Source of the DNA: Octopus sinensis | Lineage: Eukaryota | Reading direction: 5' to 3' | DNA: 64,000 nt | Assembly: GCF_006345805.1 (NCBI RefSeq) | Contig: NC_043015.1 | Coordinates: 12,462,001-12,526,000, forward strand | In this document: positions 5,401-51,548 of the stretch, one piece after another | Numbering within the stretch: position 1 is the first letter of the stretch | Layout of the letters: every line of letters begins with the position of its first letter | Translations under genes and position numbers: made by a program | The notes under the pieces: generated by a model | What the model was told of the DNA's origin: nothing | Database searches by the model: none | The model's input: only the letters and a program-made list of their open reading frames with translations

Positions 5401-8400
5401 GAATTTGAATTCAGAATGTAAATAGAGAAAACAGTACTGTAAGATATTTATAACTGTGTTCAATCATTTCTGTCATTCACTGCTGTCAATAAAAAAGTTA
5501 ATATTAAGTTTCAGGCAGTTGCCAAAAAAAAAAGATTGCTTTTTCTTCTGGGTAAATAACATAAAAATTCTTAACTATTTGAAGTAGATTTCGTACATAG
5601 CACAAATTATGAGAGATGACATGGTGTGATGTTAATGCTTTGTTTAAAAAAGCACTAGAAAAGGGAAATATTTTAAAGGGAAATCAAAACCAATGCTTGA
5701 TTATTATTTAGAACAATATTTCCCAAGCTAGGGGCTCGTGGCAAAGTTCAGTGAGGCCACAGGAAAATTAGGGTATTAGGGCTAGCCACAGTGTCAATGT
5801 AGAGGGCCTCACAACTATTACTCTGTTTCTTCCTAAAACTTTCTATTACTGTCTGAAAAACACACATCCAAATACATGCAATCCATTTTCTATATCTTAA
5901 GAGAAGTGAAAAATGTTACTCAGAAATAAAAACTAATGTTTAATTGTTATTTAGAATATTAATTTCAGTTATATATTACATAATTCTAACAGATTAGCAG
6001 GTAGTAATCAGATCAGAATGATAAATTTGCATATTTTTCTCACACTCTTATAGAGCCTATATGTTTTAAAGATTAAACTGAAAATTGTAAACCATTAAAC
6101 AGCTTATTATAGCAAGTAGACAACTCACTAAGTCTTCCAACTCTTGGAAATTATGTACCGAGGCAAGTGGAATAATTATTTTTTAAAAAAAGATACAAAC
6201 TCATAAGCCAATATGTCAACATTTCATCTGTTGGATTTTCATTGTTCAAATAGAGAAACACTTTTTTGTTTTGTTGAACTCTTGCATACAGCATTCAGTT
6301 TCATATAATTAATGAATTAATACCCAACATAATTCATTATTCTTGTATTATTTAAGAAAGATACCATATCAGTATTTTTTTTTTTAAATTTCAACTCTTT
6401 TTTCTTTTCTCAGGAGACAGACTTTGCTTATCAGGAAAAGTTGCGGGAATCCTGCCTGCACTATTTAGATTCAATAGCTCTTGCTCGCCGTATAATTGTC
6501 TGCACCACAGAATTTCCCACTCCAGATATACTTGTAGCGATATGTAATATTTGTCATAGTCTTATGTGTGAGCAACGGATCCCTGTTCATAAATTAAGGT
6601 AACTTTCTAATATAATAATTTCACTTTTATTTATAACTTGACAATTTTAGGTTTATATTTTGCACTTTCTTGACAATTGTAAGAAACTATATTGGTGGAT
6701 ATTTTTTCTAATATTATCAATGTTGATGAAAATTTGGGATTTTTTAAATGTACATTTTTGTTTGTGAAGGTGCTTGGACTCCTCGTGGTCAGGTTGTTGC
6801 TCTCACAATCATTAGACCATGAGTTCAATTCCCAGATCAGGCAGTAAAACACTTCATTTCATTTGCTTCATGTTGCTTCAGTCCCCTTTTGATCAGTTGG
6901 GGTGGATGTTGGCCTGCTCACCTAGTCAGCAGGGTGGCATCATTTGAAGGCTAAAAATGATGCAAAGTGCATTGTGACCAGCAATGTATAACATCTGATA
7001 GTCTGGTCAGTTACATGGTTTTTTTTCTTAGTTAAAAACTGTAGTGCCACATCAGTTACCAATTATTCCTTTTAAACTGCACAGGCAAGCGGTTGTTTTT
7101 TTTTTATGTCAGTGGGTTTAGATTGCATAAATGAGAAATATTTACTTCACATATTAAAGGATGAGGAAACATTTGTTTCTTCATTTTTGATACATAGCCA
7201 CAATGACTTTTAATTGTTTTTGGAAGGAAATTTTAGCTATATTTTATATTTTATTACACAATGTCTGCTTCACTCACTCATTTTCCACTCTCTTGGTCTT
7301 ACTAAATGCCTGGAAAGTATCTAGTTTATATCTGATTGATGGATGCAGCATAGCTGAAAGGTGAAAAGTTTGTCTTACAATCACAAGGTCCTAGGTTCAA
7401 ACTCTCTGCCTGGCATCTTGGACTAGTGTCATATACCATAGTTTTGGGTTGACCTAAGCTTTTGGAGTGAAAATGAGTTTACAGAAACTGTGTGAAAGCT
7501 CAACTGATAGATTGTATCTGTAATTTGCAGTCAACTTTGTCACTCATAATGTCATTGATTCTACTTGAGGATTAGATTAAGAGTATACATGTCTGTGGAA
7601 TACTCAACCACTTACATGTTAATTCAATGCATGGGTAGTTCAGTTGATCAAACAACTGGTTATTTATCATTGTAATCAAAAGAAGCCCATTTATTGGTTT
7701 ATATTTAATGAATTCATTTAAAAAAAATTACCTTCTACTGTCTACACTTTGTATTTATCCCATTTCTTTCCACTGTTTTTATCTCTTTCAATTTTCTCAT
7801 CAATATGACATGGTTGTGTTGTTAAGAGGTTCACTCCTGAACCACTTGGTTAGAAGGATGGTCCCACTGCATGAATGAGCTAACGTTTGACCTGTGAGTG
7901 ATATTGGTTGACAGAAACTGAAACTGAAGAGGGTTGTCATATATACTCTTTTACTTGTTTCAGTCATTTTGACTGCGGCCATGCTGGAGCACCGCCTTTA
8001 GTCAAGCAAATCGACCCCAGGACTTATTCTTTGTAAGCCCAGTACTTATTCTATCGGTCTCTTTTGCCGAACTGCTAAGTGACGGGGACGTAAACACACC
8101 AGCATCGGTTGTCAAGCAATGCTAGGGGGACAAACGCAGACACACAAACACACACATACATATATATATATATACATATACATATATACGACAGGCTTAT
8201 GTATGTGTAAAAATGAGTTTGGAGGGATATATTATCCGGGCAGTTACCATATTAGCCCTCGGTTAAGTTTCAGTTAATGACTGACCATAACAATCAGTAT
8301 CTAACCTCTGTGACTACATTTAGTTGTTAGTCACTCCATGAATTCTGATGGGTAATTCCATGTTCTCCTCACAGGATAGTAAAAATCGTCAAGAGTCTAT

Positions 8401-27619: not shown

Positions 27620-28568
27620 TGAATATATATATAAATTTATAAATAAGGGTATCTGAGAGACACCACCATGCCGAAATAGCAATCCCTGACTGCTATTTCG
27701 GCATAGTGGTGTCTCTCAAATACCCTTATTTATAGTTATATATATATATATATACATATATATACGCACACACATATTGGCTCCCGTGTCGGTGGCACAT
27801 AAAAAGCACCATTTGAAAGTGATCGTGCCAACATTGCCTTACCGGCACATGTGTCAGTGGCATGTGAAAAACAACATTCGAGCGTGGTCATTGTCAGTGC
27901 TGCCGGACTGGCTCCCCTGCAGGTAGCATGTAAAAAACACCTTTTGAGTGTGGCCAATGCCAGAACCACCTGACTGGCCCTCGTGCCAGTGGCACATAAA
28001 AGCACCCACTACACTCTTGGAGTGATTGGCGTTAGGAAGGGCATCCAGCTGCAGAAACTTTGCCAGATCAGATTGAGCCTGGTGCAGCCTTCTGACTCAC
28101 CAGTCCTCAGTCAAACTGTCCAACCCATGCCAGCATGGAAAGCAGACTTTAAACGATGATGTTGATGATATATATATATATCTCTATATATAAAATATAT
28201 ATATATATATAATTGCAGCGTGGAAGGTGTTTATAAGCCATTTAAGAAACACACAAAAACCGTTCGATTCACTTCAACATTTAAGTTTAATTTGTCAAAA
28301 TATTTTCGTCGCTAAAATCCACGACCTGTTCACTGACAAAAATCCATGCTGCATCTCAGCACGTGATGCAGCACGGATTTTTGTCAGTGAACAGGTCGCG
28401 GATTTTAGCGACGAAAATATTTTGACAAATTAAACTTAAATGTTGGAGTGAATCGAACGGCTTTTGTGTGTTTCTTAAATGGCTTATAAACACCTTCCAC
28501 GCTCAATTGTTTTCGTTTCAGCACACGATCTCAGATCAAATTACTTGCTATGCGAGTACATCTCCGTA

Positions 28569-28601
<33 letters not shown>

Positions 28602-28869
28602 TACTTTCTTTCATACATAAAATTTCAAATAAATATAACCAGCTATAATGAAGTCTATATTTTCAATTTTCTCTCACAGGAATCTACTCTTTTTGAAGAC
28701 TTACAAGGAAGATGTAGTTGATCTGGGTTTGGATTTCACTGTCGTTACAAATGAACTAGGAGTTACAAAGGTATTGTTGTGTTCATTACTTTTAATGCAT
28801 AAAATGCTTCATCATACTACTGAGAATGTTTGTATTCTCTGAGATATATTTATATATATATATGTGTGT

Positions 28870-28904
<35 letters not shown>

Positions 28905-31900
28905 ATAGCATAAATAATATATATATATATAATAGCATAAATAATATATATATATATATAATAGCATAAATAATATATATATATATATATAAGAGCATAA
29001 ATAATATATAAATATTTACATATATACATATATGTACAAACCTACATATATACATGCATATATACACTTGTTTGTTTTCTACACCATCTGTCTTCGTCTT
29101 TTTGTTTTTTTCGGGAATTCTCCCTATATACATGCATATATGGGTACAGGACATCAAAAAAACGTTGAACACAATGAGAAATAAAAACAAAAAAAAACAA
29201 ACGAACATTTTTTCAAACAACAAAAAAAAAAGAGAGAAACGAGACATACAACAAAAAGAATATTCCCCTTCTTCAGTTGTCCCTGTTTCATCTACTCTGC
29301 ATTTCGAAGGTAAGGACAAGACGTGACTTCATTGAAATAGTCCTTCCCGCAAAGCAAATTAAATAAAATTTGGGATTTTTTGCAGAGGGGGAAAGTGGTA
29401 ACAAGAACAGTACTGTGAGAACAAAACAGTAAAAACAATAAAACAGTAAAAGTCAGAACAGTGAGAAAAAAACAGTAAGAACAAACAATGAGGGCTGTTA
29501 AGCCAAGACGATAGAAAAATTCTTCTGAATGCTTAAGGAGAAAGCTTATGAAGAGACAGGATAAGCTGGTCTGGTCTTTGTGAAGATAGTAGTCAGAAAG
29601 ATGGATTCCCTCTCATCACATGTCAACGACAAGAGAGTCGAGGAGGAGGAGTGAGAGCGGGAATGGTGAAGGGGAGAGGAGAAGAATAGGGAAGGGTGAG
29701 AGAGAAAACCAGAAAGTATGAAGAACGAGAGAGGGGGAGAGATATACAGAGAAGAGATAGTAAAGGAGAAGAGTGCGCATCATAATTATTAAGATAAAAC
29801 TTACTTCGAAAAGGATGTGTAGCATTCGATCATCTCTTATAAAAGGCAGATTTTATCTGCCTCCCTTTGGGAGTTATAGAAATCTACAATATAGGATTTC
29901 TTCAATTACAATTTACCTAGCATTTTTAAGAGTACAATGCATCGCGTCATGCCAGGTCCAGTTTTTAAAATTTAAACTCCAATTAAGCAAAATTTACAGA
30001 AAACTCACATTCTGGTGTGTGTGTCAAATGCTTTTCTTAGTCTGGTTTACACCACACGCAAACGCACACACACAGTGGGCAACGAATAAAATGAAAGTAA
30101 TTCACTTACTGTAGTGAGTGATTCTTTCACTCTGCCTCCCACTTCCTCTTTCCACACATAGACACGCAAATATATAAATAAAATTGTAAGCTAACGTGCG
30201 TGTGTGTGAGTGTGTGTGTGTGTGTGTGTGTGAGGGTGCGTGTGTATGTGTGTGCGTGAGTGTGTGACAGGAAAGTTTTTTACGACGAATATAAGACCTA
30301 TATCCAAGTAGCAGAAAGATAAGACAGTAAGGTGTGATTTGAGGGAGATTTGGCTGCTATTTCTACCATGTCTAGCTGCCATGTAGGGGTCTCCCTCATA
30401 GGCTCATACATACATATATACATAGATAAGACAGTAAGGTGTGATTTGGGGGAAATTTGGCTGCTATTTCTACCAGGTCTAGCTACCATGTAGAGGTCCC
30501 CCTCATTGGCTCATATATATATACATACATAAGACAGTAAGGTGTGATTTGAGGGAGATTTGGTTGCTGTTTCTACCAGGTCTGTTAGGCCTTCTCATGT
30601 AAACTCAAGCTTTCTCATGCCTTGAACATAAGACCAAAGCAGAGAATGTATTCTTTTATTCTTCTGCTTTTTCCAGCCATTGGTCTGTGGCTATGCTGGG
30701 GAAATGCCTTGAAGAATTGTAGTTTAATGAATCAACTCCAGTTTTATTTTTGTAAGCATTGTACTTATTCTATCTGTTTCCTTTGTCAAACCACTAGGTG
30801 ACAGGGATGTAAACAAACCAACATTCGTTGTCAAGCAGTGGTGGAGGACAATCACAAGCACAGACACGCACACACACACACATACATGCATACACATATA
30901 CACACATACATACATACATACATATATATATATGTGTGTATATATATATTGCAGCGTGGAAGGTGTTTGTAAGCCATTTAAGAAACACACAAAAACCGTT
31001 ACATTCACTTCAACATTTAAATTTAATTTGCCAAAATATTTTCGTCGCTTTGAGACCGCGACCTGTTCACTGACAAAAATATCGTGCTAACAGGTCGCGG
31101 TCTCAAAGCGACGAAAATATTTTGACAAATTAAATTTAAATGTTGAAGTGAATCTAACGGTTTTTGTGTGTTTCTTAAATGGCTTATAAACACCTTCAAC
31201 GCTGCAACTGTTTTCGTTCCAGCACACGATCTCAGATCAAGTCACTTGCTATGCAAGTACATCTCTGTAACTATATATATATTTATATATATATATATAT
31301 ATGTATATTGGTAAAAACAGTAAGATAACAAAAGAAAGAAAGAGACCTCAATATTATGTAAATAGAGGAAATCTTTATATATAAAAGTGAGGTTGTGTGT
31401 CTGTCTCCTACGATTTAGATTCCTACTCCCACATTTTGCGGTGCAGTTTAACCAAAACCGGGTATCTTATAGTCGTGATTCATATCGAGACCGTCTGGGT
31501 ATTAGCGCGCGTCTACGATGAGTCTACGATTTAAAAAAAAATTTACCATCAATTTTTCCCATTTTTAATCCATTTTTGACATATATAAGGGAAGTAACTC
31601 TCTAAAATTTATTATTAAATCTCAGAACGTAAAAAGCTACAGTAACACCCCTCCCCCTTTGTGGTTAGCCATATTGAGATGGCTATTATACTTTACATCT
31701 CTAAAAATGCTTATATAATTATTTCCCTTACAAACCCGAGCAACGCCGGGCGATACTGCTAGTATAATAATATAAGTAATATATAAATATATGCATGTAT
31801 ATATACATACATATATATGTATATATACATGTATATATGGGTACAGGACATCGAAAAAACGTTGAACACAATGAGAAACGAAAACAGTACTTTAAAAAAT

Positions 31901-50772: not shown

Positions 50773-51079
50773 GTATGTATCTGAAAAAATAAATGTCTTC
50801 TTTCTTTTTCGCTGAATAAATTTTGTATTTATATGAAATAGTGTCTTCTTCGTTCGACCACATCTTTTAAGAAATTTATTCTACACCGCTTTTCAACCCT
50901 TTTATTTGAATGAGTTTTTTTCCACGTACCCCCTTTTAATGTGCTTATACATAGGTATGAATTTTTGAATTTAGTTTGTAGCGAACACTAGTGTTTGCTA
51001 CGAGTTCAAGGACCTCTACTACCATCTTTGCCGACCCCAGGTTGGGAACCCCTGTTCTACGAAAACAAATTACAGAATA

Positions 51080-51326
51080 CAATTGCAGCGTGGAAGGTGT
51101 TCGTAAGCCATTTAAGAAACACGCAAAAACCGTTCGATTCACTTCAACATTTAAGTTTAATTCGTCGACGAAAATATTTTGACAAATTAAGCTTAAATGT
51201 TGAAGTGAATCGAACGGCTTTTGTGTGTTTCTTAAATTGCTTATAAACACCTTCCACGCTGCAATTGTTTTCGTTCCAGCACACACGATCTCAGATCAAA
51301 TTACTTGCTATGCGAGTACATCTCCG
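51080..51326 (+). mobile_element. Palindromic element family A, copy 3 (centre collapsed) with 13-bp TSD
   Basis: Arms and tail match 28211-28569. AAATTACAGAATA is duplicated at 51067-51079 and 51327-51339. Confidence 0.85.
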
Positions 51327-51548
51327 AAATTACAGAATAAGAAACGAGGTATTATTGTACAGCGTTGATGTCATAGAAAGCTACAAAAACAATTATATTT
51401 ACAATATTGTAAAGGCATGACAGTGCCATATTGTATGTTCTACACCACTGTGATAATATTTTTGAACATTATTTCCGGGTTCCATTCAAAGAAACGCATA
51501 CAACTTGTTTCTAGCACATGAGTTGATGCGGGAATTGTGTTTGTTTAT

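What the first reader, a model, noticed from the sequence alone, without database searches (positions are those of the whole stretch)
28211..28569. Palindromic mini-element with a hammerhead ribozyme on both strands and a swapped G3-C8 catalytic core
Seen: a 360-bp insert in (TA)n made of two ~145-bp inverted arms plus a one-sided tail. Each strand reads stem I TTTGTCA/TGACAAA, core GUGAACA plus one extra G, stem II GUCGC/GCGAC, GAAA, palindromic AUAU, then UU. Established: hammerheads have a CUGANGA/GAAA/UH core in which C3 pairs with G8. Minimal hammerheads with a palindromic stem III loop mark Penelope-like element pLTRs and cleave as dimers. Here C3 and G8 are both reversed (G3-C8), the compensatory change expected if structure is under selection, and a plain CUGANGA search would miss it. 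Inter-copy changes fall in the stem II loop or produce G-U pairs. Inference: this is a non-coding, ambisense-ribozyme mobile element, either a Penelope-like end with an inverted pLTR or a retrozyme-like non-autonomous family.
Basis: partly seen in the sequence, partly recalled or inferred. Interest (0 to 1): 0.85.

Follow-up and report, generated by a model that had tools for sequence, protein, structure and literature searches.

The report
Octopus retroelement hammerhead with swapped core
This 360-base palindrome is a short, doubled end piece of a Penelope-type jumping gene that is common in an octopus genome, and its hammerhead RNA motif has two paired core letters swapped (G3-C8) across the family, a likely still self-cutting natural variant whose cutting is untested.

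Summary
Observation confirmed. 28211-28569 is two ~146-bp inverted arms plus a one-sided ~59-bp tail, with a minimal type-I hammerhead (GUGAACA-G, G3-C8) on each strand.

It is not a separate ambisense element. It is the pseudo-LTR plus tail of an autonomous Penelope-like element (RT + C-terminal GIY-YIG; a pLTR-ORF-pLTR copy was found, and its ATG lies in the tail). The palindrome likely forms at insertion:
- 52 of 90 sampled copies have an inverted arm, with 48 different junctions.
- Arms stop at two fixed 3' sites, and many end in an extra G that likely copies the RNA cap.

G3-C8 is family-wide (6187 motif hits; 91 of the first 100, none C3-G8). The sister family and 7 relatives have C3-G8 in the same architecture, so the swap is derived and likely compensatory. 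Published mutagenesis shows this swap rescues cleavage.

Cutting is unshown. Copy ends show no peak at the cut site, and many copies read through it.

I found no natural G3-C8 in print (10 searches; one key paper was unavailable). This scan noted G3-C8 hammerheads before, in protist retroelements and phages. Verdict: new variant of a known kind.

The parts
28211..28357 (-). Inverted arm: tail-less copy of the pLTR, from the upstream 3' stop site (about +147) back to +1, ending in one extra base (C at 28357, read G on the minus strand) that likely copies the RNA cap
   Evidence: outer ends at +147..+149 in 39 of 52 inverted arms; extra G
28291..28340 (-). Minimal type-I hammerhead, G3-C8, one G-U in stem II (C-to-T at a CpG)
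28358..28364 (.). 7-nt junction filler between the arms, resembling nearby element sequence; junctions differ between copies
   Evidence: 48 distinct junction strings in 52 copies
28365..28510 (+). Forward arm: pLTR from +2 of the inferred transcript, sense to the parent ORF
   Evidence: 98% identical to both pLTRs of the full-length copy L138
28380..28429 (+). Minimal type-I hammerhead: stem I, G3-U-G-A-A-C8-A9, extra G, 5-bp stem II, GAAA, palindromic AAUAUU, predicted cut after U 28422
   Evidence: family-wide state; relatives
28511..28569 (+). One-sided tail; holds the parent ORF's start codon (28550-28552) and first six codons; ends at the downstream 3' stop site (about +205)
   Evidence: continues into the ORF (MRVHLRNSE...) in L110/L138; all 90 sampled tail copies stop at +202..+209
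30940..31277 (+). Second copy in the window, other subfamily (9-nt loop II), different central junction; G3-C8 motif complete on the minus arm
51077..51330 (+). Third copy, both arms shorter, flanked by an 11-nt direct repeat (target duplication)
   Evidence: repeat read by eye
28680..28770 (+). Host exon, UBE3C-like HECT ligase; the element lies about 110 bp upstream of it, presumably in the intron
   Evidence: phmmer to 6k2c_A, E=1.1e-6

Best explanation
The insert is the pseudo-LTR plus tail of an autonomous Penelope-like retroelement, with a second, inverted pLTR copy likely made during insertion, and it carries the element's minimal hammerhead in a family-wide G3-C8 form that is predicted to cut weakly as a dimer or with the element's protein. 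[quoted passage not shown] Inferred mechanism: transcription starts at the A of AGATG (+1), 22 nt before the hammerhead core. The RT-endonuclease nicks both strands of (TA)n DNA and primes one cDNA on each, starting inside the RNA at about +205 (tailed arm) and +147 (tail-less arm). When it starts on the 5' copy of these sites it copies only 150-205 nt back to the cap, often adding a G for the cap. The two cDNA ends are then joined by microhomology or filler, which gives the palindrome; if only one cDNA is kept the insert has one arm. The ribozyme's job would be on the parent's RNA (two same-strand pLTR motifs pairing through AAUAUU). In this palindromic intronic copy both motifs are passengers.
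For: Parent: L138 has the unit at 2544-2747 running into an ORF from 2728 to about 5868 (one frameshift) and a second unit at 6905-7050; open frames of 793 and 1042 aa in other copies; GIY-YIG Pfam E=3.3e-5, above cut-off, on a 427-aa piece; profile of relatives hits a solved RT, E=1.6e-5. Long copies show the same layout with kb-long arms and the tail on one side. 90 copies taken in genome order from 1285 tail-pattern hits: 52 with an inverted arm, 48 distinct junctions, 43 of 90 forward and 30 of 52 inverted arms end at -5..+9, arms of one copy share subfamily variants at 39/39, 44/45 and 19/20 sites-pairs (0.82, 0.52, 0.65 expected if independent), 62 of 86 lie in (TA)n and 20 of the other 24 have a flanking direct repeat of 6-16 nt. 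Extra G: 23 of 31 arms stopping at +1 and 36 of 50 in a genome-wide list (by eye), where the template has C or T; attributed to cap copying for L1/SVA (PMC3287187, passages). G3 in 97/97 and C8 in 96/98 arms; 91 of first 100 of 6187 hits G3-C8, 0 C3-G8 (by eye); kept in an older subfamily with another loop II. Sister family (52-55% aa): same layout, C3-G8, stem II pair A-U for G-C, stem I CCA/UGG. 7 more relatives with C3-G8 behind the ORF, 5 with U at 17. Tree of 9 proteins puts the G3-C8 family next to the C3-G8 sister. C3G/G8C partly rescues a PLE hammerhead, and PLE RT starts at two internal sites that define the tail (PMC11167929); the G:C swap is the only rescuing double mutant in this region (PMC9901934).
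Against: No cleavage shown. Copy ends do not peak at the predicted cut (+59): side by side, +55 to +63 each hold 1-7 junctions and +59 has 2 clean plus 4 explained by stem-I microhomology (first 100 of 580, by eye). About half of the arms run through the site to +1, so their templates were uncut. The sister family has C at position 9 (2176 hits with C fixed in the pattern; A seen in L191), and four related, probably duplicated, older copies read G3-G8, so core constraint may be relaxed in this lineage. One junction recurs 4 times and one twice among 52, which could be a small remobilised palindromic subfamily. Many extra Gs could also come from the other arm or the flank (1-nt microhomology). 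Full-length ORFs of this family gave no Pfam hit. Arm concordance would also fit copying of palindromic masters. The window copy's own arms differ at one subfamily site.
Confidence: 0.82

Rival explanations
1. Same origin, but the hammerhead is a dead or nearly dead relic: G3-C8 was fixed by drift or for RNA folding or protein binding, and the element transposes without cleavage.
For: No peak of ends at +59; many cDNAs run through the site; the sister family also departs from the core (C9); G3-G8 in some older copies; in the Anolis element, ribozyme mutants did not affect insertion in vitro and no reads ended at the cut (PMC11167929).
Against: Of the core positions only 3 and 8 differ from relatives and they stay complementary; two random core changes would do this about 1 time in 150 (my estimate: 1/55 x 1/3). 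Core, G10.1-C11.1 and the palindrome are kept across subfamilies whose loop II differs. The swap is the known rescuing one.
Confidence: 0.3
2. The 360-bp palindrome is itself a non-autonomous mobile family (retrozyme-like, ambisense), copied as a unit by the parent's enzyme, with both strands' ribozymes in use.
For: Thousands of short copies against few full-length ones; arms share variants within copies; one junction seen 4 times; pLTRs act in cis for trans-mobilisation (PMC3846280, passages); animal retrozymes derive from pLTRs (bioRxiv 10.64898/2026.07.22.740005, abstract and part 1).
Against: 48 distinct junctions in 52; 38 of 90 copies have no inverted arm; only 23 of 90 have both motifs; no head-to-tail monomer arrays among the 90; kb-long ORF-bearing copies have the same layout; a palindromic RNA would be a stable hairpin.
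Confidence: 0.08
3. A DNA-transposon MITE whose long inverted repeats hold the motif by chance.
For: Long inverted arms, TA-rich sites.
Against: One-sided tail containing an ORF start, variable arm lengths, 6-16-nt target repeats, identity to the termini of an RT + GIY-YIG ORF, homologous hammerheads in relatives.
Confidence: 0.01

Closest known systems
Minimal type-I hammerheads in pLTRs of Penelope-like elements (Cervera and de la Pena 2014, PMC4209133; parts 1-2 of 4 read, supplement searched)
   Same: Type I, extra base between 9 and 10.1, G10.1-C11.1, palindromic 15.2-16.2, no loop I; pairs on opposite strands 100-700 bp apart and single motifs from truncated PLEs are already described there.
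   Different: G3-C8. The text read reports only U3-A8 (Schistosoma Cercyon) as a core covariation.
Poseidon of Anolis carolinensis, PAc (Frangieh et al. 2024, PMC11167929; parts 1-2 of 4 read)
   Same: RT + C-terminal GIY-YIG, AT-rich targets, both strands cut and extended, two internal RT start sites defining the tail; engineered C3G/G8C partly active.
   Different: Here the swap is natural; the tail is about 58 nt, not 30-40; the ATG lies about 130 nt after the cut site rather than inside the ribozyme; a Cys linker precedes the endonuclease.
Neptune / Nematis clades of C-terminal EN+ PLEs (Craig et al. 2021, PMC8557442; passages, Hydra section, supplement parts 2 and 54)
   Same: CX3CX2C linker before GIY-YIG, CCHH residues, (TA)n preference, inverted 5'-truncated copy, one-sided tail.
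   Different: DKS in place of DKG; clade not fixed by a tree with reference sequences; the short linker spacer looks more like the Nematis rows, by eye only.
Natural core variants of hammerheads (Perreault et al. 2011, PMC3088659; passages)
   Same: Natural covariation at 3-8 exists.
   Different: Reported as U3-A8 in the passage read; G3-C8 not mentioned there.
Non-LTR retrozymes (bioRxiv 10.64898/2026.07.22.740005; part 1 of 5)
   Same: Short non-coding pLTR-derived units with type-I hammerheads.
   Different: Retrozymes are head-to-tail tandem monomers; these are single or head-to-head with a live-looking parent.

Membership tests
Penelope-like element, C-terminal EN+ | Single ORF with RT domain | tested here: met
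   About 1045-codon ORF with TDKSG, SMDVVSLYPSI, GGAIG, YSRYVDDI (motifs read by eye). Pfam RVT_1 only weak, on the sister family (E=0.002, below cut-off); profile hit to a solved RT E=1.6e-5.
Penelope-like element, C-terminal EN+ | C-terminal GIY-YIG endonuclease | tested here: met
   PF01541 E=3.3e-5, 24.5 bits against cut-off 22.6, on L102; no hit for the 793-aa and 1042-aa forms.
Penelope-like element, C-terminal EN+ | Pseudo-LTRs in tandem, inverted 5'-truncated copy, one-sided tail | tested here: met
   L138 tandem; inverted arms and tail.
Penelope-like element, C-terminal EN+ | Hammerhead in the pLTR, sense to the ORF | tested here: met
Penelope-like element, C-terminal EN+ | Spliceosomal intron (some PLEs) | tested here: inconclusive
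   Branch-point-like and acceptor-like text ends at +2, but no fixed spliced exon precedes it.
Neptune or Nematis clade | CX2-5CxxC linker and CCHH motif | tested here: met
   Read by eye; the six Cys are invariant in 26 relatives.
Neptune or Nematis clade | Placement in RT phylogeny with reference elements | not tested
   No reference sequences at hand; one search holds only unnamed relatives.
Hydra clade | Under 3 kb, DKT, no CCHH, CxCX5C linker | tested here: not met
   4.36-kb unit, DKS, CCHH present.
Naiad / Chlamys | N-terminal endonuclease | tested here: not met
   GIY-YIG is C-terminal.
Minimal type-I hammerhead | U4 G5 A6, A9, G12 A13 A14, A15.1-U16.1, H17, stems I and II | tested here: met
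Minimal type-I hammerhead | C3 and G8 (CUGANGA) | tested here: not met
   G3 and C8; the Watson-Crick pair is kept. Filed as a variant, not as a canonical member; no Rfam hammerhead hit.
Minimal type-I hammerhead | Extra base after 9, G10.1-C11.1, palindromic stem III for dimers | tested here: met
   G 28394; G 28395 / C 28412; AAUAUU.
Minimal type-I hammerhead | Site-specific self-cleavage | not testable with these tools
   Indirect genomic test negative.
Non-LTR retrozyme | Head-to-tail tandem monomers, each with a hammerhead | tested here: not met
   Single or head-to-head in the 90 copies; one adjacent direct pair, L002.
MITE | Fixed length, terminal inverted repeats at both ends, transposase parent | tested here: not met

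The most novel reading that the evidence does not exclude
An octopus Penelope-like family has carried a working G3-C8 hammerhead through several waves of transposition, the first such natural ribozyme in an animal and invisible to CUGANGA searches; and its thousands of short inserts are a fossil record of PLE integration by two cDNAs, primed on opposite target strands from two internal RNA sites and copied to the cap, which explains head-to-head pLTR palindromes without the antisense template proposed earlier.
Probability: 0.45. Interest if true: 0.72.

Novelty: new variant of a known kind. Interest (0 to 1): 0.55.

Why it matters
If it cuts, the natural hammerhead core has a third allowed 3-8 pair at thousands of loci in an animal, so descriptor searches should allow any Watson-Crick 3-8 pair; PLE families reported to lack hammerheads deserve a second look. 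G3-C8 needs two transversions through weak intermediates, so its fixation bears on what PLE hammerheads are for, an open question. The insert set also tests how PLE inverted repeats arise: cap-like Gs at the inner ends of either arm and two fixed outer ends favour two sense-templated cDNAs, matching the in vitro Anolis result over antisense self-priming (PMC3846280). The palindromic architecture itself is ordinary PLE biology.

Tried and rejected
1. Fossil evidence of in vivo cleavage. One search gave about 35 clean junctions exactly at +59 among 64 hits (15 more explained by stem-I microhomology, about 14 mutants or unclear), against 3 of 64 at a control site, +68; by eye. This looked positive, but the two patterns differed in anchor and filter. 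The side-by-side pattern (100 of 580 rows seen, about 45 of them set aside as length-shifted copies of an older subfamily) showed no peak at +59. Its filter also drops (TA)n-flanked junctions at +59, so a small peak is not excluded. Rejected as evidence.
2. Intron before the hammerhead: the base before the extra G varies, so there is no fixed exon 1; the cap reading is preferred.
3. Rfam: only hairpin-driven miRNA hits below gathering score.
4. Expression: no RNA holder listed; the four runs laid were contigs, RNA only by guess. Not used either way.
5. Stem I covariation in the older subfamily: the 3' strand has a 2-nt insertion without a 5' partner, so it is not compensatory.
6. Cofolding two monomers by minimum energy did not give the hammerhead dimer; uninformative, as stem III is only 6 A-U pairs.
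7. Of 73 metagenome loci only 9 gave a hammerhead hit; one lies inside the ORF (L202) and one on the minus strand (L274), both left out of the 7; many loci end too near the ORF.
8. Literature: searches showed no natural G3-C8 report. Lunse et al. 2017 (PMC5785218), the paper most likely to list one, is not held. One supplement file of PMC4209133 was not searched and figures are not held.
9. Look-ups of earlier scan notes by place and by sequence were empty.

Full report
Observation. The insert is as described: inverted arms of 139 nt at 97%, by alignment 28211-28357 against 28365-28510, a 7-nt filler and a one-sided tail to 28569, in (TA)n. Each strand has a minimal type-I hammerhead layout with G3-U4-G5-A6-A7-C8-A9, an extra G, a 5-bp stem II, GAAA, the palindrome AAUAUU and U17; the plus-strand cut would follow 28422. 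No comparable motif arose in 100 shuffled windows. Rfam does not see it.

It is a high-copy family. G000 is a 2.7-Gb genome; a sister element's protein is 98% identical to a protein named Octopus vulgaris, so the host is an octopus. A 34-nt tail pattern has 1285 exact hits and the core pattern 6187. Two more copies lie in this window. The element sits about 110 bp before a UBE3C-like exon.

The parent. Three of the first 30 tail copies ran further upstream. That upstream motif has 283 hits, many as inverted pairs 2-4 kb apart. [quoted passage not shown] In L138 the unit is followed directly by the ORF, whose ATG is the ATG in the tail, and recurs without tail 4361 bp later. This is the pLTR-ORF-pLTR layout of a Penelope-like element, with the hammerhead sense to the ORF. 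By motifs it is Neptune- or Nematis-like, not Hydra or Naiad; the clade was not tested by tree.

How the palindrome likely forms. I took 90 of the 1285 tail hits in genome order: 30 and 60 of the other 70 listed; most of the 10 skipped were already held in other loci. Numbering is from the A of AGATG. All 90 stop at +202..+209. 52 have an inverted arm, 39 of them starting at +147..+149; 43 forward and 30 inverted arms end at -5..+9; 4 forward arms go further upstream. Junctions are 48 distinct strings in 52; one recurs four times and one twice. Arms of one copy share subfamily variants (39/39, 44/45, 19/20). 62 of 86 short copies lie in (TA)n; 20 of the other 24 have a flanking direct repeat. 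Arms that stop at +1 are preceded by G in 23 of 31 cases and 36 of 50 in a genome-wide list (by eye), with a random base before it, whereas the template has C or T. Many of these Gs double as 1-nt microhomology. An untemplated 5' G is attributed to cap copying in L1 and SVA (PMC3287187, passages). In the Anolis PLE the protein cuts and extends both strands and starts at two internal RNA sites that bound the tail (PMC11167929). Together these suggest two cDNAs, one per target strand, started on the 5' pLTR of the mRNA, run to the cap and joined head to head. This step is inferred. An earlier proposal was self-priming on an antisense template (PMC3846280, passages). Inverted pLTRs and opposite-strand hammerhead pairs are already known PLE features.

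Is the swap real and selected? G3 is in 97 of 97 and C8 in 96 of 98 arms; 91 of the first 100 genome hits are G3-C8, 9 are single mismatches, none is C3-G8 (by eye). It persists in subfamilies with other loop II sequences. The sister family has a homologous pLTR with two 3' ends and the same layout but C3-G8, an A-U for G-C pair in stem II and a different stem I; C3 in 97 of its first 100 hits (by eye). Among 73 metagenome loci of relatives, a scanner open to any 3-8 bases found 9 hits, all C3-G8, 7 of them behind the ORF on the sense strand, and none in 5 shuffles. A 9-protein FastTree, midpoint-rooted, places the G3-C8 family beside the C3-G8 sister, so the swap is derived. The engineered swap partly restores a PLE hammerhead and was the only rescuing double mutant in this region in a pairwise scan (PMC9901934, passages).

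Against activity. The search for copy ends at the cut site first looked positive and failed the better-matched test. About half of the arms run through the site. The sister family has C9, and some older copies are G3-G8. In Anolis too, uncut RNA is the insertion template and cleavage needs the protein, so this neither shows nor excludes activity. I put cleavage under some condition at about 0.65. In this palindromic copy neither motif is likely to act: they are on opposite strands and a read-through RNA folds into one long hairpin.

Novelty. Natural U3-A8 is published (PMC4209133; PMC3088659). G3-C8 appeared only as an engineered variant in what I read, and ten searches showed no natural report. 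Lunse et al. 2017 was not held (title only), and figures and one supplement file were not visible, so this claim is provisional. Also consulted in passages only: PMC6765202, PMC6155905, PMC2377424, PMC10085705. Six earlier scan notes describe G3-C8 hammerheads in protist retroelements and phages; I did not check them and they are not evidence, but the swap is evidently not unique to this genome. What this case adds is an animal family with thousands of copies, an identified parent and a C3-G8 sister for comparison.

Verdict. Ordinary PLE architecture, a real and probably selected core variant, activity untested. New variant of a known kind; interest 0.55.

Noticed in passing
window 27639-27733: A second small palindrome in (TA)n. 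Its 28-nt end motif has 82 exact hits in G000, several as inward-facing pairs with variable spacing; probably the inverted end of another element family.
   Followed up: partly
L182:5371-5410 (G000:C29): Sister PLE family has a hammerhead with C3-G8 but C at position 9 (2176 hits) and a non-palindromic GAAC in stem III; a second core variant worth testing.
   Followed up: partly
L140, L141, L144, L151: Older, probably duplicated copies of this family read G3-G8; either decay or an intermediate on the way to G3-C8.
   Followed up: no
window 28211-28510: Lies just upstream of a UBE3C-like exon on the plus strand, so host pre-mRNA would carry a ~145-bp hairpin, a possible A-to-I editing substrate (my inference).
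   Followed up: no
window 27778-28140: Four 65-66-nt spaced repeats followed by a conserved-looking block; resembles a common octopus interspersed repeat (recalled, no call).
   Followed up: no
L182:1710-2500: Asparagine-rich stretch in frame before the sister family's RT, like the N-rich inserts described in rotifer Penelope ORFs (PMC3846280); may instead be the inverted arm's other strand.
   Followed up: no
junctions at about +53 to +65: Copy ends seem more frequent across the hammerhead's 3' half than at +68, possibly RT pausing at stem I; patterns were not matched, so unproven.
   Followed up: partly
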